A DNA stretch of 44,636 bases from Patescibacteria group bacterium (lineage in GTDB: Bacteria > Patescibacteriota > Microgenomatia > UBA1400 > PJMF01), in NCBI GenBank assembly GCA_018816385.1, contig JAHIVK010000054.1:1-44636 (forward strand). The letters are read 5' to 3'. Below are positions 18,163 to 27,007 of the stretch, piece after piece. Every line of letters begins with the position of its first letter. The stretch's first letter is position 1. The notes beneath the pieces were generated by a model that was not told the DNA's origin, did not search any database, and worked only from the letters and a program-made list of their open reading frames with translations. The position numbers were made by a program, and so were the translations under genes.

Positions 18163-19818
18163 TTAGGTCAGGGGCTGATTAACTGAGAGTTGTTTTTGGC
18201 AATTATGGAGAATTTCTTTGGGTGTATTAAGCAACAGCCAAGCAGCTCGAGGTCCATGAGTTTTGCCCAGTAAAACTTGATAGATACTGGTGAAAGCCTG
18301 CTTTGGTCCTATGCCATTTTTTGACTCAGTGAAAATAGCCTGTTGAAGCTCTTGAGGATCTGGCCATTTTTTGTTCAAGACTTGATTAATTGTCCAAATC
18401 ACAAACTCTTTTTGATCTGCAGTCAGTGAACTAGTGTCATATGACACATTTGCTCTGGGTGTGAGTTGAAATTCACTGGGTGCGTAGTTATCCAGCCAGA
18501 TTTGAGCATGTTTTTTTCTGAGTTCAAGTTCGGCAATTTCTTTTTTAGTCAATGCTGATCCCTTGATCTTGGTAAACTCTGCCTCTAAATCTTTTTCGGG
18601 ATACTGCATCCAGCCAGCCACATCCCGATACCTGGGCAGAAAGTATGGCTTGGGGACAGCCCCAACTTGAGCCAGCTCAAAAGATCTGGCCAGTCTTTGA
18701 TCTCCCGTTTCTTGTCCCCAGAATATTTGGGCCGCTTGGTCATAGTCATCAAATAAGTCTGGCACAGCCATAGTGGCAGGATCAAAATCTATGACCTGAT
18801 TAAAATGTTTATTAGTAAATAGAAAACGACCAACTGCTGGAGGAAACAGTTGCACAAATTCCCTGGCTGAAGTCCCCACTCCCTTGCTGGAACTCATCTT
18901 AGCTCCCCTGACTAAAATCCATTCGTAAGGAATATCGAAAGGAATAATTGAGTTAAAAACTTGCTCGCAGAAAGCATTGGCCATATCGCGGGAACCGCCA
19001 GCTGAAGTGTGATCTTTGCCGGAACCCTCAATGGTCACCCCCATTACCTGCCAATGAGCTGGCCAATCAATTTTCCACATCAGTTTGCCCGACCCATCAA
19101 AAGGTGAGGTAGTGAAGCGTTTTAATTCTTGGCCATCTTTGTCCAAACTGACGGCCTCAACCTTTTGACCATCCCAGGATTGAGTTAGGGTTTTTTTTGA
19201 TTGCAAATCTTTATCAAATGATTTGAATGGATACCAATTTGTTGGTAAATCATACTCTGCAACCTTGGTATAAATATCTTTAATGACTTGAGCTTTATCT
19301 AAGGATGTTTTAATCACTCCATTCATTTGTCCTGATTCATAAAGTTGATGACTCCAGACTATTTCTTGAGAACAACCTAAATAGCGGAAAGCATGGATAA
19401 AATCAAAGGCATAAAGTTGGGCATAACTATTGGCCTCTTGTAACTTTTTCTTTTCTTCACTTGGAATGTGACTGGTATCAATGCCTGACTCAGTAATTTG
19501 GGGCGCAGGGATTTGGCAAAGTGGTTTATCAATGTATGGTTGATACTTTTTAGTATCTAAGTAGCTGGGGATTTTTGTCATGCCATCCAGGTCGTTAATG
19601 ACATAGGTGCTAGTCACGGGTTGGTCAGTTTTGGTGGCTAAAACTTTGGCGACTAAGTCATGGAGCACCACACCTCTCAAAGAACCAACGTGGACTCTAC
19701 CAGAGGGAGTTTTCATATCATCCACATGCAGTTTATTAACTTGGTGCTTTGTTTGCCAATCCAGAACTTCTGCCACCAAAGTGTCTATCCAGTGAGGTGA
19801 CCCAGTTTGTGTTGTCAT
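18163..19818 (-). CDS. lysS: Lysine--tRNA ligase, class I
   Basis: TPSGRVHVGSLR (HIGH), GKLMWKIDWP, GKDH, KMSSSKG, GPR anticodon-domain motif. Confidence 0.93.
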   Translation of the reverse strand: MTTQTGSPHWIDTLVAEVLDWQTKHQVNKLHVDDMKTPSGRVHVGSLRGVVLHDLVAKVLATKTDQPVTSTYVINDLDGMTKIPSYLDTKKYQPYIDKPLCQIPAPQITESGIDTSHIPSEEKKKLQEANSYAQLYAFDFIHAFRYLGCSQEIVWSHQLYESGQMNGVIKTSLDKAQVIKDIYTKVAEYDLPTNWYPFKSFDKDLQSKKTLTQSWDGQKVEAVSLDKDGQELKRFTTSPFDGSGKLMWKIDWPAHWQVMGVTIEGSGKDHTSAGGSRDMANAFCEQVFNSIIPFDIPYEWILVRGAKMSSSKGVGTSAREFVQLFPPAVGRFLFTNKHFNQVIDFDPATMAVPDLFDDYDQAAQIFWGQETGDQRLARSFELAQVGAVPKPYFLPRYRDVAGWMQYPEKDLEAEFTKIKGSALTKKEIAELELRKKHAQIWLDNYAPSEFQLTPRANVSYDTSSLTADQKEFVIWTINQVLNKKWPDPQELQQAIFTESKNGIGPKQAFTSIYQVLLGKTHGPRAAWLLLNTPKEILHNCQKQLSVNQPLT

Positions 19819-20695: not shown

Positions 20696-20998
20696 TTACA
20701 TCTGGAGAGAATCATTTGAATCGACACTTTGCCATCTTTGGGCTTGATCGACACTATCCACCATAATGGTGACTTCGTCGCTGGGTGAAACTGTTAAAAA
20801 GCCATTGGATACGGTCATTGATTTCCAAACATCAGCCTTTAAGTAAAGGAGTTCCCCCTCTTTGATTCTGGTAAATAAAGGAATGTGTCCAGGCAAAATA
20901 GTGATCATACCTTGGACAGCTTGGGCCGAAACAGCTTCGACTTCTGTAGATAAAAGTTCTTTTTCTTGTGAGACTATCTGCAGTTTGAGTTTGGCCAT
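20696..20998 (-). CDS. atpC: ATP synthase epsilon subunit (short)
   Basis: LQIVS, GMITILPGHIPL, VSNGF; position after atpD. Confidence 0.9.
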   Translation of the reverse strand: MAKLKLQIVSQEKELLSTEVEAVSAQAVQGMITILPGHIPLFTRIKEGELLYLKADVWKSMTVSNGFLTVSPSDEVTIMVDSVDQAQRWQSVDSNDSLQM

Positions 20999-21003
20999 GA
21001 TAT

Positions 21004-23278
<2,275 letters not shown>

Positions 23279-23284
23279 ATAATA

Positions 23285-24814
23285 TTACTTAGATTGTTCT
23301 AACATCAATTCCGGATGTAAACTGTTAAAAGTTTTAACTATTTGATGCAGTTCTTGATCAATGTCTTCGGTTAATTTGGCTTGATTTTTGATTTCACTCA
23401 AAAGTTTGCGATGATTGGAGTGCATGTACTTGATGTATAACTGCTCCCACTCGGTGATAGCTTTTTCTTCAACTGGGTCAAGATAACCCTTGACTGCCGC
23501 AAAAATGATCACCACCTGCTCTTCTGGTTTGAGGGGTTGGTCCCAACCTTGTTTTAAGATGGCATTAACCCTAATACCTCTATCTAGTTGAGCTTTAGTT
23601 TTTTCATCCAAATCAGAACTAAATTGAGAAAAGGCTTCCAATTCTCTAAATTGAGCTAGATCTAATTTCATAGTGCCAGCCACTTGTTTAGTGGATTTAA
23701 GTTGAGCTGATGAGCCGACTCTAGAAACAGACAAACCAATATTAATAGCTGGTTTCATGCCAGCGTTAAACAGGTCAGTTTCAAGATAGATTTGACCATC
23801 AGTAATTGAGATGACATTAGTGGGAATATAGGCAGATACGTCTCCAGCCTGAGTTTCGATAATTGGCAGAGCAGTAATTGAACCTCCGCCGTATTTATCA
23901 TCTAGTCGGCAAGCTCTTTCCAGTAGCCTGGAGTGAAGGTAAAAAACATCACCAGGATAGGCTTCTCTACCAGAAGGACGACGCAGTAAAAGTGAAATTT
24001 CTCGGTAAGCTTGAGCGTGTTTAGTTAAATCATCAAAAATGATTAACACATCTTTGCCTTGATCTAAAAAGTATTCGGCTACAGCTTGACCAGTGTAGGG
24101 AGCTAAGTATTGGGCGGCGGCAGTATCAGAAGCGCTGGCCGAGACAATTATGGTATGATCCATAGCTGATCTTTCGGTTAAGACTTGAGTAATTTGAGCC
24201 AGTGAAGCTCGTTTTTGACCAATTGAAACATAAACACAAACCACATCACCAGCGGTTTGATTAAGGATGGTCCCCAGGGCAATAGCCGTTTTGCCTGTAG
24301 ACCTGTCACCAATAATCAGCTCTCTTTGGCCTCGACCAATGGGAATCATAGCGTCAATGGCTTTGATGCCAGTATGCATAGGGACCGAGACTGATTTGCG
24401 TCGAATCACTCCAGGAGCAATTTTTTCTAGAGGCATGAATCTTTTTGGTTTAATAGGATTGCCGCCATCAATCACCTGTCCTAGACTATCAATAGTTCTA
24501 CCCAGAATACTGTCTGCTACTCCAACTGACAGGACTCGGCCGGTTCTCTTAACAGTTGAACCAGCTCTCAAATGCATAACGTGTCCTAGGGCGACAATAC
24601 CCACGCCCTCTTTTTTGAGATTTAAAGCTAAACCAAACTCACCCTGGCCTAGATCAATTAATTCGCTAATTTGAGCAGAATCTAGTCCAGAGACTTCTAT
24701 GATGCCGTCACCAAATGATTCAACCGTGCCCACAGATTCAGACTGGGGTGATAAATCTGCATCTTGAATTAATTCCTTGAGAGACTCTGAGAATGAGGGA
24801 CTGAGTTTATTCAT
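23285..24814 (-). CDS. atpA: ATP synthase alpha subunit
   Basis: GRGQRELIIGDRSTGKT, GREAYPGDVFYLHSRLLER. Confidence 0.99.
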   Translation of the reverse strand: MNKLSPSFSESLKELIQDADLSPQSESVGTVESFGDGIIEVSGLDSAQISELIDLGQGEFGLALNLKKEGVGIVALGHVMHLRAGSTVKRTGRVLSVGVADSILGRTIDSLGQVIDGGNPIKPKRFMPLEKIAPGVIRRKSVSVPMHTGIKAIDAMIPIGRGQRELIIGDRSTGKTAIALGTILNQTAGDVVCVYVSIGQKRASLAQITQVLTERSAMDHTIIVSASASDTAAAQYLAPYTGQAVAEYFLDQGKDVLIIFDDLTKHAQAYREISLLLRRPSGREAYPGDVFYLHSRLLERACRLDDKYGGGSITALPIIETQAGDVSAYIPTNVISITDGQIYLETDLFNAGMKPAINIGLSVSRVGSSAQLKSTKQVAGTMKLDLAQFRELEAFSQFSSDLDEKTKAQLDRGIRVNAILKQGWDQPLKPEEQVVIIFAAVKGYLDPVEEKAITEWEQLYIKYMHSNHRKLLSEIKNQAKLTEDIDQELHQIVKTFNSLHPELMLEQSK

Positions 24815-24843
24815 AGTTTGGCCTTATTTATTAAATCTATAAT

Positions 24844-24868
24844 TAGACTTTCTGCGGCAGAAAGTCTA
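24844..24868. repeat. 25-bp perfect palindrome made of two family A termini
   Basis: TAGACTTTCTGC-G-GCAGAAAGTCTA; overlaps atpH stop. Confidence 0.85.
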
Positions 24869-25300
24869 TTGTTGTTGAAGTATTTTTTTTATTTTTTCCA
24901 GTTTGCTGGCAATTGTGCCGTCATATTCGGTTGATCCCACTCGAACTTTAAGACCACCAACCACCTTTGGATCAATGACTTCTCTAAAGTCGATGGGTCC
25001 TTGGTTTTTTTCAATGGCTTGTTTGATTTTTTTTCTTTGATCATCTGATAGTTTGACAGCTGTGACCACGGTGGCAGTTGGCAATTGAGATTGAAGCTTG
25101 GCCAATTTACCGGCAATCGTGACGTCAAATTCTTTAAGACCAACCGTAATTTTTAATCCGCCAATAACCCCCGAATTAACCACTTCCTTCAACTCAAACT
25201 CTTGACCAATTTTACGCCTGATTTCACTCTCAACAGCTTTTTTTTGAGTTGGTGTTAATTTGTGGGCAGTGGTAATGACAACTCTTGGTTGATTGGTCAT
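24866..25300 (-). CDS. atpH: ATP synthase delta-like subunit made of two tandem C-terminal domains
   Basis: Two copies of V.TA..L...Q...I ... V.GGLK..VG..E.D.TIA.KL; lies between atpF and atpA. Confidence 0.88.
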   Translation of the reverse strand: MTNQPRVVITTAHKLTPTQKKAVESEIRRKIGQEFELKEVVNSGVIGGLKITVGLKEFDVTIAGKLAKLQSQLPTATVVTAVKLSDDQRKKIKQAIEKNQGPIDFREVIDPKVVGGLKVRVGSTEYDGTIASKLEKIKKILQQQ

Positions 25301-25307
25301 AAATTAT

Positions 25308-25793
25308 TTATATTTGTTTCAAAAACAGATTAAGTTCTTGGTCAATCAGTTTTGAGTGTTGAGCAGAAGTCAATGAAGTGCCCACAACTTTGGCACTGGT
25401 TTGAATGACTGCTTCGGCTAGTTGATCGTTCATACCTTTGAGCATTTGTTCCTTTTCATTGACCCACTTTTGTTTCAAAAGTTCAACTTCTACTTGAGCC
25501 TGTTGTTTTGCCTCTTCAATGATTTGAGTTTTGGTAGTGCTAGCTTCTTTGGTGGCTTTGTCCAAAATTTGAGCTGATTTTTCATTCAGTTCTTGTTTGG
25601 TTTTCTCTCCTAGCGCCTCAATTTGTTCTCTTTGCACCAAAGCTTCTTCAGCCGCCTTTTGTCCTTCGGCAATTCTTTTTGATCTCTCATCAAAGACTTT
25701 TAAAATGGGTTTATAGAGTAGCACAGACAGACTGCCAACAACCACCAAAAAGTTGATGGCTTGAAACAAAATTTGGGGAAATTGAATATCCAT
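25308..25793 (-). CDS. atpF: ATP synthase b subunit
   Basis: QAINFL TM helix, LYKPI...DER...I, coiled coil. Confidence 0.95.
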   Translation of the reverse strand: MDIQFPQILFQAINFLVVVGSLSVLLYKPILKVFDERSKRIAEGQKAAEEALVQREQIEALGEKTKQELNEKSAQILDKATKEASTTKTQIIEEAKQQAQVEVELLKQKWVNEKEQMLKGMNDQLAEAVIQTSAKVVGTSLTSAQHSKLIDQELNLFLKQI

Positions 25794-25814
25794 AGCTCTC
25801 CTTTATTTTTGATT

Positions 25815-26039
<225 letters not shown>

Positions 26040-26053
26040 TTATAAATAATTAC

Positions 26054-27007
26054 TTAATGTTCTTCGTGACCTTGGGTGGCCATGTTAAAAAATACCAGCG
26101 ACAACATAGAAAAAACTAAGGCTTGAATAAAACCCACAAATAGCTCCAAGCCGTAAAAAGGCATAGGCACCACCACGGGAATTAAAAAAGTGATGACTAC
26201 CAACAGCACTTCGCCGGCAAAGATATTGCCAAATAACCGGAAAGCAAACGAGATAATTTTGGCAAACTCGGAAATAAGCTCCAGCAGGCCTACAAAAAAA
26301 TCAATGGGACTGGCAAGATTAAAGAATTTTTTGAGGTAAGAAAACTTGAGGGTCATTAGACCAAAAATTTGAGTAGCAATGACTGAAGTAATTGCCAAAG
26401 CTAAAGTCGTGTTGAGGTCAGCACTACCGGGACGGAAAACAGGAGCCTTAATTTGATGATTGCTAGCTTCAATTAATTCTTCTTTAGTGAACATATCTAA
26501 ATCATTGACAATATTGGTTTCTGTTTCAACTTGATGTTGGAGAGTGATCTCATGATTGGGGTCAGCCTGATGCTGGTCTGTTTCTAGGTGTTGATTAACT
26601 TCTTCCAGTGTCACTTCAATCGCCTCAAGTTCATTGGTTATAGTCACTTCATCTTGTTCGGCAATAGGCGTAGTAACTATGGTACCCACACCCGGCAATA
26701 AGCCGAACCAGTTGTTAAACAGGATAAACAAGAAAAAAGTTGCAAAAAATGGTAAAAATCGGCGTGTTTTTTTGGCGTCTCCAGTGATAGTTTGGATAAA
26801 GCTTTGTAAAGTCTCAATTAGCCACTCAGCAACATTTTGTAAACCTTTTGGTTTATTTGTAGATTTAAGTTTAAAGCGAACTATCAAGGCAAACGCAATC
26901 ATTACAAAACTAACAATCAAGCTGGTTAACATTGAGTTAGTAATTTGGAGATGGCCAATTTGGAATAATGGTTCAGCTGAAATTGAAATATGTGGACCAG
27001 TTGCCAT
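26054..27007 (-). CDS. atpB: ATP synthase a subunit with acidic/His-rich insertion
   Basis: NWFGLLPG, ADLNTTLALA, SFAFRLFGNIFAGE, IQALVF. Confidence 0.96.
   Translation of the reverse strand: MATGPHISISAEPLFQIGHLQITNSMLTSLIVSFVMIAFALIVRFKLKSTNKPKGLQNVAEWLIETLQSFIQTITGDAKKTRRFLPFFATFFLFILFNNWFGLLPGVGTIVTTPIAEQDEVTITNELEAIEVTLEEVNQHLETDQHQADPNHEITLQHQVETETNIVNDLDMFTKEELIEASNHQIKAPVFRPGSADLNTTLALAITSVIATQIFGLMTLKFSYLKKFFNLASPIDFFVGLLELISEFAKIISFAFRLFGNIFAGEVLLVVITFLIPVVVPMPFYGLELFVGFIQALVFSMLSLVFFNMATQGHEEH

What the first reader, a model, noticed from the sequence alone, without database searches (positions are those of the whole stretch)
24866..25300. ATP synthase delta built from two C-terminal domains with no N-terminal helical domain
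Seen: RVVITTAHKLTPTQKKAV...VIGGLKITVGLKEFDVTIAGKLAKL followed by TATVVTAVKLSDDQRKKI...VVGGLKVRVGSTEYDGTIASKLEKI. Established: delta/OSCP normally has an N-terminal helical bundle that grips the alpha N-termini and a single C-terminal domain that binds b. Inference: a different way of anchoring the peripheral stalk to F1, perhaps one domain per b subunit. I do not know of a described example.
Basis: partly seen in the sequence, partly recalled or inferred. Interest (0 to 1): 0.75.

Follow-up and report, generated by a model that had tools for sequence, protein, structure and literature searches.

The report
ATP synthase delta with doubled tail domain
The only delta (stalk-anchoring) subunit gene of this small groundwater bacterium's ATP synthase has lost its usual cap domain and instead carries two back-to-back copies of the stalk-binding domain, a conserved design that bears on how many side stalks such enzymes have.

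Summary
Window 24866-25300 (minus strand) is atpH, lying between atpF and atpA in an a-c-b-delta-alpha-gamma-beta-epsilon operon. Its 144-residue product is two complete OSCP/delta C-terminal domains (residues 6-74 and 75-143) joined without a linker, with no N-terminal helical bundle. No second delta and no separate delta-N gene was found in the 97.5%-complete genome.

It is not an artefact. Contigs of two other studies carry the gene without indels. 26 of 140 genomes of the same family (11 genera) have the same compact tandem. 30 of 159 proteins held from the protein searches are compact tandems, some down to about 32% identity. Both halves are conserved; the second is the more canonical.

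The relatives mostly have a delta-C-only gene of 71-99 residues, or delta-C fused to alpha in place of alpha's N-terminal helix.

Loss of delta-N in CPR bacteria, natural delta-alpha fusions, a delta dimer with two stalks (Chloroflexus) and an engineered three-stalk enzyme are in print. My searches found no description of a free-standing tandem delta-C. This scan has noted related forms on other DNA.

The mechanism is inferred: most likely a two-grip clamp for one b2 stalk (about 0.5). The rival is one stalk per domain (about 0.25). Folding did not resolve the geometry.

The parts
24866..25300 (-). atpH: delta subunit of 144 aa made of two delta-C (OSCP C-terminal) domains; no delta-N
25079..25285 (-). 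delta-C copy 1 (residues 6-74), the derived copy; forms its own cluster in the domain tree
24872..25078 (-). delta-C copy 2 (residues 75-143), the copy closer to canonical and to delta-C-only deltas
25308..25793 (-). atpF: single b subunit, 161 aa, ordinary length, no delta-like extension
23285..24814 (-). atpA: alpha, 509 aa; keeps a short N-terminal amphipathic segment before the beta-barrel
26054..27007 (-). atpB: a subunit, 317 aa, with an acidic insert of about 80 residues
25815..26030 (-). atpE: c subunit, 71 aa
22406..23278 (-). atpG: gamma, 290 aa
21004..22395 (-). atpD: beta, 463 aa
20696..20998 (-). atpC: epsilon, 100 aa, beta-sandwich only; relatives have 137-152 aa

Best explanation
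Identity (near certain): this is the genome's only atpH. [quoted passage not shown] It arose by an old internal duplication of a delta-C-only delta and is fixed in about 11 genera of one family of small-genome groundwater bacteria.

[quoted passage not shown] I propose that copy 2, the more canonical one, does this job. Copy 1 is joined directly to the N-terminal end of copy 2, the point where delta-N is attached in ordinary deltas, so it must lie right beside copy 2, towards the top centre of F1. There it gives a second grip for the same b2 stalk. That grip would be on the second b chain, on a second alpha N-terminal segment or crown site, or on both.

The tandem would thus be a single-chain double clamp that replaces the two-point attachment lost with delta-N. 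How many such units and stalks one enzyme carries stays open.
For: Identity:
- Two OSCP C-terminal hits in one ORF between atpF and atpA.
- No other delta-C or delta-N in the genome.
- Fold matches are to delta/OSCP C-terminal domains only.

Real and selected:
- Contigs of two other studies carry the gene without indels.
- 26 of 140 family genomes hold a full-length compact tandem in one open frame, plus one independent tandem in G010.
- 20 of 20 fetched tandems have the two domains abutting or overlapping by one residue.
- 30 of 159 held proteins are compact tandems.
- In the 49-row alignment the invariant columns are G48 and D59 (copy 1) and G116 and D127 (copy 2). Seven of the 9 nearly invariant columns lie in copy 1.
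- Copy 1 differs at fewer residues than copy 2 in 3 of 3 close pairs (7/13, 19/29, 22/26). dN/dS is 0.03-0.29 where computable, but dS is saturated.

Copy 2 canonical:
- It scores higher than copy 1 against a delta-C-only profile in 31 of 35 tandems and against a canonical delta-C profile in 28 of 35.
- The best PDB sequence matches align to copy 2.

One old duplication:
- 25 of 35 copy-1 domains cluster (SH-aLRT 91).
- Holding 32 copy-1 domains plus one fragment as a clade is not rejected (p-AU 0.679).

Adjacency:
- Linker length is zero and nearly constant.
- In natural delta-C-alpha fusions of relatives, the end of delta-C runs straight into alpha's beta-barrel. This fits the published contact of the delta-C sheet with that barrel (PMC12002316).

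Binding:
- Complex prediction of delta with two alpha(1-95) and two b(95-161) gave weak support: score 0.43 against a best control of 0.12. The mark was reached by 116 of 157 solved complexes and 2 of 215 mismatched pairs. At 0.60 or under it was reached by only 18 of those 157 and by both mismatches that passed.
- The runs agree in at least 74% of contacts, and the partner's pLDDT is at least 66. A like complex is solved, so this may be likeness only.
Against: - No tool result gives the position of either domain on F1. The complex job returned no contacts. Both AlphaFold2 models have low pTM (0.39, 0.34) and leave residues 61-74, the expected last helix of copy 1, as a low-confidence coil.
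- Copy 1 keeps the full sequence signature of a b-binding delta-C, so it could just as well hold a separate stalk.
- With delta-N gone, published work argues that nothing limits the enzyme to one stalk (PMC12229609).
- Other deltas with a full N-terminal part plus 2 or 3 delta-C domains on 15-50-residue linkers exist. This suggests that extra delta-C domains can serve extra attachment points.
- The argument that copy 1 lies towards the centre rests on chain topology, not on coordinates.
- The clade for the AU test was named after the tree had been seen.
Confidence: 0.5

Rival explanations
1. Two-stalk enzyme: each delta-C of the tandem sits on a different alpha subunit and holds its own b2 stalk and a subunit. 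The tandem would then be a single-chain equivalent of the Chloroflexus delta dimer (alpha3beta3 gamma epsilon delta1 b4 a2) and would raise the H+/ATP ratio.
For: In CaF1Fo each delta-C independently binds an alpha beta-barrel and one b C-terminus, and two delta-C domains give two stalks and two a subunits (PMC12002316). Deleting delta-N and fusing delta-C to alpha gave up to three stalks (PMC12229609). A 2026 preprint proposes more than one stalk for short-delta enzymes of CPR bacteria. Both copies keep the whole delta-C signature. Tandem duplication arose independently at least three more times: G010/L097, P0036 and P0053.
Against: The two delta-C domains of CaF1Fo lie about 135 degrees apart on the F1 head, joined through dimerised delta-N domains and flexible hinges. 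Here the linker is zero residues and of constant length in 20 of 20 fetched tandems and in the 28-row alignment, which forces the domains to touch. In two of the independent tandems the last helix of copy 1 is truncated: L097 matches profile positions 1-50 of 69, and P0053 matches 2-59. That argues against a canonical b groove in copy 1 there. The operon has one a and one b gene, which decides nothing.
Confidence: 0.25
2. Copy 1 is a functionless relic of a duplication, and only copy 2 works, as in the delta-C-only deltas of the relatives.
For: Copy 1 scores lower than copy 2 against delta-C-only and canonical profiles in most tandems. The relatives manage with a single delta-C of 71-99 aa.
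Against: Copy 1 is retained at full length in 26 family genomes and in tandems down to about 32% identity. It holds 2 of the 4 invariant and 7 of the 9 nearly invariant columns. It has fewer substitutions than copy 2 in 3 of 3 close pairs. It still scores 49-91 bits against the delta-C-only profile in all but one tandem (L097, 38 bits).
Confidence: 0.04
3. Assembly or gene-calling artefact: a collapsed repeat, or two genes read as one.
For: None found. The two halves are diverged, so a repeat collapse is not expected.
Against: Contigs from runs of two other studies span the whole stretch with 2 and 4 substitutions and no indels, and a third run holds a strain variant with substitutions only. 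The same architecture occurs in one open frame in 26 genomes. There is no stop or frame change between the halves.
Confidence: 0.01

Closest known systems
Canonical bacterial delta / mitochondrial OSCP (PF00213, TIGR01145; e.g. Bacillus PS3 6N2Y chain I, E. coli 6OQR chain W)
   Same: Same gene position between atpF and atpA. Each half is homologous to the C-terminal alpha/beta domain that holds the b C-terminus.
   Different: There is no N-terminal helical bundle, the part that grips two of the three alpha N-termini and sits on the pseudo-threefold axis. The C-terminal domain is present twice.
Chloroflexus aurantiacus F1Fo (PMC12002316; PDB 9ITJ, the best sequence and fold match)
   Same: There are two delta-C modules per enzyme top. 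Each delta-C is an autonomous module that binds an alpha beta-barrel and a b chain.
   Different: In Chloroflexus two separate 157-aa chains dimerise through a shortened four-helix delta-N, and their delta-C domains lie about 135 degrees apart. Here a single chain has no delta-N and the two delta-C domains are joined directly.
Engineered deltaDeltaN-alpha fused Bacillus PS3 FoF1 (PMC12229609; PDB 9JC1) and natural delta-C-alpha fusions (Acidaminococcus fermentans, named in that paper; relatives G003, G005, G029, G036, G089 here)
   Same: Delta-N is absent and only the stalk-binding delta-C is retained. The fused forms occur in the same family and order as the window's genome.
   Different: Those have one delta-C per alpha, covalently attached, so three per enzyme. 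In the natural fusions seen here delta-C replaces alpha's N-terminal segment. The window's delta is free-standing and doubled, and its alpha keeps the N-terminal segment.
Short (delta-C-only) deltas of CPR bacteria (bioRxiv 10.64898/2026.10.01.756066; 71-99-aa genes in most relatives)
   Same: Same lineage and same operon. They are the likely ancestor state of the tandem.
   Different: They have one domain instead of two. At 144 aa the tandem would not even count as 'short (<130 aa)' in that survey. The word 'tandem' does not occur in its main text, and its supplements could not be read.
N-ATPase b subunit with a delta-C-like C-terminus (TIGR03321) and the mycobacterial b-delta fusion (PRK13428; 7JG5 chain d)
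   Same: Delta-C homology (39.5 and 56.4 bits).
   Different: Both scores are far below the cut-offs (224.7 and 328). Here b is a separate 161-aa protein without a delta-like part.

Membership tests
F-type ATP synthase delta/OSCP (PF00213, TIGR01145) | Profile match above the curated cut-off | tested here: met
   PF00213 scores 108.2 bits against a cut-off of 22.3. TIGR01145 scores 73 against 57.5. The other 11 NCBIfam 'F0F1 ATP synthase subunit delta' models listed stay below their cut-offs.
F-type ATP synthase delta/OSCP (PF00213, TIGR01145) | N-terminal helical bundle (delta-N) that binds alpha N-termini | tested here: not met
   No match to profile positions 1-100. The first half models as beta-alpha-beta-beta-beta. 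No delta-N-like frame exists elsewhere in the genome (best E 0.17).
F-type ATP synthase delta/OSCP (PF00213, TIGR01145) | C-terminal alpha/beta domain (delta-C) | tested here: met
   Present twice, at residues 6-74 and 75-143. Fold matches are to delta-C of 9ITJ, 6N2Y, 6OQR and 7JG8.
F-type ATP synthase delta/OSCP (PF00213, TIGR01145) | Gene between atpF and atpA in an F-type operon | tested here: met
   The operon order is a-c-b-delta-alpha-gamma-beta-epsilon.
F-type ATP synthase delta/OSCP (PF00213, TIGR01145) | Binds the b C-terminus and the F1 crown | tested here: inconclusive
   Complex prediction gave weak support: 0.43 against a best control of 0.12. No contacts were given, and the result may be likeness to solved complexes.
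Chloroflexus-type dimeric delta (two stalks) | Shortened four-helix delta-N that dimerises | tested here: not met
   There is no helical N-terminal region at all.
Chloroflexus-type dimeric delta (two stalks) | Two b2 stalks and two a subunits per enzyme | not testable with these tools
   This needs the stoichiometry or a structure of the complex.
Natural or engineered deltaDeltaN-alpha fusion | Delta-C in one polypeptide with alpha | tested here: not met
   A stop codon and 51 nt separate atpH (ends 24866) from atpA (starts 24814). Alpha is 509 aa with its own N-terminal segment.
Delta-C-only 'short delta' of CPR bacteria | Delta-N absent | tested here: met
Delta-C-only 'short delta' of CPR bacteria | A single delta-C, with length under about 130 aa | tested here: not met
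   144 aa with two domains.
N-ATPase b with a delta-C-like tail (TIGR03321) | Delta-C fused to the C-terminus of b, with no atpH | tested here: not met
   b is 161 aa without a delta-like part. TIGR03321 scores 39.5 (delta) and 69.5 (b) against a cut-off of 224.7.

The most novel reading that the evidence does not exclude
The tandem delta-C sets the number of peripheral stalks at two (or lets each of several units hold a stalk). These groundwater CPR-like bacteria would then run a natural multi-stalk, multi-a-subunit F-ATP synthase with about twice the usual H+/ATP ratio, able to make ATP, or to hold a membrane potential, at very low proton-motive force. It would be a single-chain counterpart of the Chloroflexus delta dimer and of the 2025 engineered enzyme.
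Probability: 0.25. Interest if true: 0.85.

Novelty: new variant of a known kind. Interest (0 to 1): 0.6.

Why it matters
Work published in 2025 showed that delta decides how many peripheral stalks, and hence how many proton-conducting a subunits, an F-ATP synthase carries. Delta-N on the symmetry axis limits the enzyme to one stalk. A delta dimer gives two, and delta-C on every alpha gives up to three, with a higher H+/ATP ratio.

One family of small-genome groundwater bacteria holds delta-C alone, delta-C doubled and delta-C fused to alpha, all in otherwise collinear operons. Expressing these operons side by side would test directly how delta architecture sets stalk number and bioenergetic gearing. 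It would also show how organisms thought to have leaky membranes and a fermentative life use their ATP synthase.

The tandem is the least expected of the three forms. Its rigid, linker-less join does not fit either published solution.

Tried and rejected
That the halves are homologous rests on the profile hits.
- The search for related loci with the 28-row alignment failed because no stretch was conserved enough. A 7-row alignment worked, but the record titles of the closest loci name unrelated taxa, so they gave no taxonomy.
The organisms behind the multi-delta-C proteins could therefore not be named.
- The search for homologous proteins for longer forms found none among 794 candidates, which is weak evidence. 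I saw no tandem-delta-C-alpha fusion in my loci.
- A second AlphaFold2 run with 49 sequences did not improve the model: pLDDT 60, pTM 0.34. The relative position of the two domains stays unknown.
- Complex prediction returned no interface, so it cannot tell the hypotheses apart.
- P0038 (1111 aa) and P0065 (1753 aa), which had many matched stretches, are repeat proteins without an OSCP hit. They are false positives.
- RNA run X14 covers only 25969-26100 (atpE/atpB), not atpH. Transcription of atpH is not shown.
- Some rows have matches running across stop codons, such as G006 and G042. In G006 (locus L009) the match spills into the neighbouring atpF, so I did not count such rows as tandems. 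The other rows were not checked one by one.
- The taxonomy of the genome could not be established.

Full report
WHAT IS THERE

The window carries one F-type ATP synthase operon on the minus strand:
- atpB 26054-27007 (a, 317 aa)
- atpE 25815-26030 (c, 71 aa)
- atpF 25308-25793 (b, 161 aa)
- the ORF in question, 24866-25300 (144 aa)
- atpA 23285-24814 (alpha, 509 aa)
- atpG 22406-23278
- atpD 21004-22395
- atpC 20696-20998

It starts 7 nt after the atpF stop, and its frame is closed just upstream (open frame 145 aa; sequence). An N-terminal extension is therefore impossible.

- Pfam OSCP matches twice (108.2 bits, cut-off 22.3). In the six-frame genome search the two stretches cover profile positions 101-172 (E 2.1e-14) and 105-172 (E 1.4e-15) of 172.
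- The twelve NCBIfam 'F0F1 ATP synthase subunit delta' models listed each match twice, with their last 65-75 positions. Only TIGR01145 passes its cut-off.
- A delta-C profile of my own puts the domains at residues 6-74 and 75-143, so the linker has zero length.
- Two AlphaFold2 runs gave the same secondary structure: E6-11 H17-31 E36-41 E49-53 E56-60, then E75-80 H86-100 E104-109 E117-121 E124-127 H130-143. There is no helical bundle.
- Confidence in those models is modest. The 28-sequence run had pLDDT 67.3 and pTM 0.39. The 49-sequence run had pLDDT 60.0 and pTM 0.34. Residues 61-74, where the last helix of copy 1 is expected, are low-confidence coil in both.
- Foldseek against the PDB gave 25 matches at E <= 0.001. 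All are delta, OSCP or b-delta chains, each aligned over 62-82 columns, i.e. one domain. The best is Chloroflexus 9ITJ chain S.
- By sequence the best solved relatives are also 9ITJ_S (E 2.7e-08), PS3 6N2Y_I and the engineered 9JC1_I. All are aligned to copy 2.

- The genome (999,501 bases, 77 contigs, 97.5% complete) has no other OSCP match at E <= 10.
- A delta-N profile built from 33 canonical deltas has a best E of 0.17 (11.3 bits) over 8837 stop-to-stop frames.
- The delta-C profile hits only this ORF. The next best frame has E 0.29.
- There is only one set of alpha/beta genes, plus one distant paralogue.

IT IS A REAL, CONSERVED GENE

- Contigs of two runs from two other studies of groundwater metagenomes span 24600-26100 in one piece. 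They carry 2 and 4 substitutions, none inside atpH, and no indels. A third run holds a strain variant with substitutions only.
- The one RNA run does not reach atpH, so transcription is not shown.
- A search of 1.84 billion representative proteins found 1255 hits at E <= 0.001. The best 150 were returned.
- I classified the 159 proteins then held with the delta-C profile:
  - 30 compact tandems (<= 160 aa)
  - 49 delta-C-only (<= 100 aa)
  - 18 with a short N-terminal part (101-150 aa)
  - 36 of canonical size
  - 6 longer
  - 15 with two delta-C domains plus extra sequence
  - 3 with three delta-C domains
  - 2 with no delta-C domain
- Across 28 tandems (identity to the window's protein 96% down to 28%) the two halves align without gaps at the junction.

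DISTRIBUTION AMONG RELATIVES

In the 140 species genomes of the same family, 105 have a match to the tandem profile. (One of these 105, G090, is an unpublished genome with a delta-C-only match. No claim here depends on it.)
- 26 genomes, including the window's, match over nearly the whole profile (first position 1-12, last position 143-145, of 145) in one stop-free frame of 135-164 aa. They fall in 11 genera.
- G010 has a shorter tandem (130-aa frame), while the other listed members of its genus have 73-85-aa frames.
- Most other matches are frames of 73-99 aa that cover one half of the profile.
- G003, G005 and G089 have the domain inside 550-556-aa frames.
- All 20 further tandem genes that I fetched have abutting domains and lengths of 141-148 aa.

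All operons inspected keep the order a-c-b-delta-alpha-gamma-beta-epsilon. Subunit b is 160-168 aa, and 161 aa in most. In the fused forms (G003, G005, and G029 and G036 of other families of the order) delta-C runs straight into alpha's beta-barrel and replaces alpha's N-terminal segment. Genomes with a tandem or a delta-C-only delta keep that segment.

Thirty-five of the 140 genomes have no match. Five of them were tested, and all five also lack a beta-subunit match at E <= 1e-20, so they seem to lack the enzyme altogether (not found with this query).

ORIGIN

A tree of 135 delta-C domains has few columns and weak resolution. Within it:
- 25 of the 35 copy-1 domains fall in one cluster (SH-aLRT 91), together with one 88-aa fragment.
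- Copy-2 domains lie scattered among delta-C-only sequences.
- In L097/G010 (support 90), P0036 (99) and P0053 (96) the two copies of one protein are sisters. These are separate, younger duplications.

Holding 32 copy-1 domains plus the fragment as one clade is not rejected. That tree was even 18 log-likelihood units better than the free search (p-AU 0.679). The group was named after I had seen the tree.

Copy 2 scores higher than copy 1 against a delta-C-only profile in 31 of 35 tandems. Against a canonical delta-C profile it does so in 28 of 35.

Copy 1 is nevertheless not decaying:
- It holds 2 of the 4 invariant and 7 of the 9 nearly invariant columns of the 49-row alignment.
- It differs at fewer residues than copy 2 in three of three close pairs (7/13, 19/29, 22/26).
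- dN/dS is 0.03-0.29 where it can be computed, but dS is saturated.

The simplest history is: delta-N lost, leaving a delta-C-only delta, then one old tandem duplication, with copy 2 conservative and copy 1 specialised. The same event recurred elsewhere.

WHAT IS KNOWN

- In the Chloroflexus enzyme two 157-aa deltas dimerise through a shortened delta-N. Each delta-C lays its beta-sheet on an alpha N-terminal beta-barrel and holds the kinked C-terminus of one b chain between its two helices. The two delta-C domains lie about 135 degrees apart, and the enzyme has b4 and a2. (PMC12002316: passages, and the section on stalk plasticity read whole.)
- In the PS3 enzyme one alpha N-terminus contacts delta-C and two contact delta-N. 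Delta-N sits on the pseudo-threefold axis and is argued to limit the enzyme to one stalk. Deleting it and fusing delta-C to alpha gave up to three stalks and an H+/ATP ratio of 5.8. A natural delta-C-alpha fusion in Acidaminococcus fermentans is noted. (PMC12229609: passages only.)
- A 2026 preprint reports short deltas in CPR bacteria and other phyla, as well as delta-alpha and b-delta fusions. It proposes more than one stalk for such enzymes. (bioRxiv 10.64898/2026.10.01.756066: abstract and outline, passages, sections 3.1 and 4.1 read whole.) The word 'tandem' does not occur in its main text, and no 'duplicat' passage shown concerns delta.
- Five literature searches found no description of a delta made of two delta-C domains.

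HOW IT MOST LIKELY WORKS (INFERENCE)

Each delta-C is an autonomous module that binds an alpha crown and a b chain. In ordinary deltas the chain enters delta-C from delta-N, which lies at the top centre of F1. In the natural fusions the chain leaves delta-C directly into alpha's barrel. With a zero-length join, copy 1 must therefore touch copy 2 at the side where delta-N normally is.

I read the tandem as a double clamp for one b2 stalk. Copy 2 does the canonical job. I put this at about 0.5.

The main rival is that each domain holds its own stalk, as a single-chain Chloroflexus-like enzyme.
- For it: the published rule that loss of delta-N frees the stalk number; the full delta-C signature of copy 1; and the existence of deltas with a complete N-terminal part plus two or three delta-C domains on 15-50-residue linkers.
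- Against it: the rigid linker-less join compared with a 135-degree separation; and the truncated last helix of copy 1 in two independent tandems.
- I put it at about 0.25.

A functionless copy 1 (0.04) and an artefact (0.01) are contradicted by conservation and by independent assemblies.

The complex prediction used delta with two alpha(1-95) and two b(95-161).
- It gave weak support: score 0.43 against a best control of 0.12.
- The mark was reached by 116 of 157 solved complexes and 2 of 215 mismatched pairs. At 0.60 or under it was reached by only 18 of those 157 and by both mismatches that passed.
- The runs agree in at least 74% of contacts, and the partner's pLDDT is at least 66.
- No contacts were reported, and a like complex is solved. 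The result therefore shows at most likeness and does not separate the readings.

EARLIER NOTES OF THIS SCAN

The scan has met related forms on other DNA:
- a delta-C-only delta in a Woesebacteria genome;
- a truncated delta with an internal duplication;
- many delta-C-alpha fusions, one said to carry two delta-C modules.

I confirmed delta-C-only and single delta-C-alpha forms in this family myself. I did not see a double delta-C-alpha form.

VERDICT

The protein is a member of the delta/OSCP family by its C-terminal domain and gene position, but it fails the delta-N criterion. It is a new variant (a free-standing, linker-less tandem delta-C) within the recently recognised group of delta-N-less F-ATP synthases. 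The mechanism and the number of stalks remain to be shown.

Noticed in passing
window 20696-20998 (-): Epsilon is only 100 aa. It aligns with a relative's 139-aa epsilon over residues 1-87 (56% identity), then ends, so the C-terminal helical (inhibitory) domain is missing. A GreA gene follows 30 nt downstream. Epsilon ORFs of the relatives that were not cut by a locus end are 137-152 aa.
   Followed up: partly
window 26054-27007 (-): The a subunit is 317 aa, with an acidic insert of roughly 80 residues between membrane segments. Complete a ORFs in loci of the same family with a tandem, delta-C-only or alpha-fused delta are 287-345 aa. Several other loci, mostly of other families of the order, have 245-271 aa.
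   Followed up: no
L105 (G005), L106 (G003), L107 (G029), L108 (G036); also G089: These are natural delta-C-alpha fusions in the same family and order. Delta-C replaces alpha's N-terminal segment and runs straight into the beta-barrel. There is no separate atpH.
   Followed up: partly
P0030, P0031, P0033 (360-412 aa); P0045, P0046, P0052, P0054, P0055, P0060, P0063, P0083, P0091, P0102 (254-349 aa): These are deltas with a full-size N-terminal part plus two or three delta-C domains on linkers of a few to about 100 residues. The seven scanned with Pfam have a full-length OSCP match.
   Followed up: partly
L097 (G010:C1:177721-178101): An independent, younger tandem of 128 aa. Its first copy lacks the last helix, and the other listed members of its genus have 73-85-aa frames that match one half of the profile.
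   Followed up: partly
G008, G016, G024, G055, G066 (same family): No delta match and no beta-subunit match at E <= 1e-20 in genomes that are 92-98% complete. Some genera of the family seem to have lost the ATP synthase altogether.
   Followed up: partly
L016, L017, L018, L076 (genome contigs records): The record titles call the contigs carrying this operon Methylococcaceae, Limisphaerales or Pseudomonadales. Yet L016's contig has the same length as G001:C33 and the same operon layout as L095 (cut from that contig), and G001 is a 1.2-Mb genome of the window's family. The organism labels look wrong.
   Followed up: no
window 18163-19818 (-): Lysyl-tRNA synthetase of class I (PF01921, E 1e-68), the less common type in bacteria.
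   Followed up: no
window 25109-25295, run X6: A strain variant with 16 substitutions, all within the part that codes for copy 1, and no indels. It may correspond to the 96-97% identical proteins P0002 and P0003.
   Followed up: no
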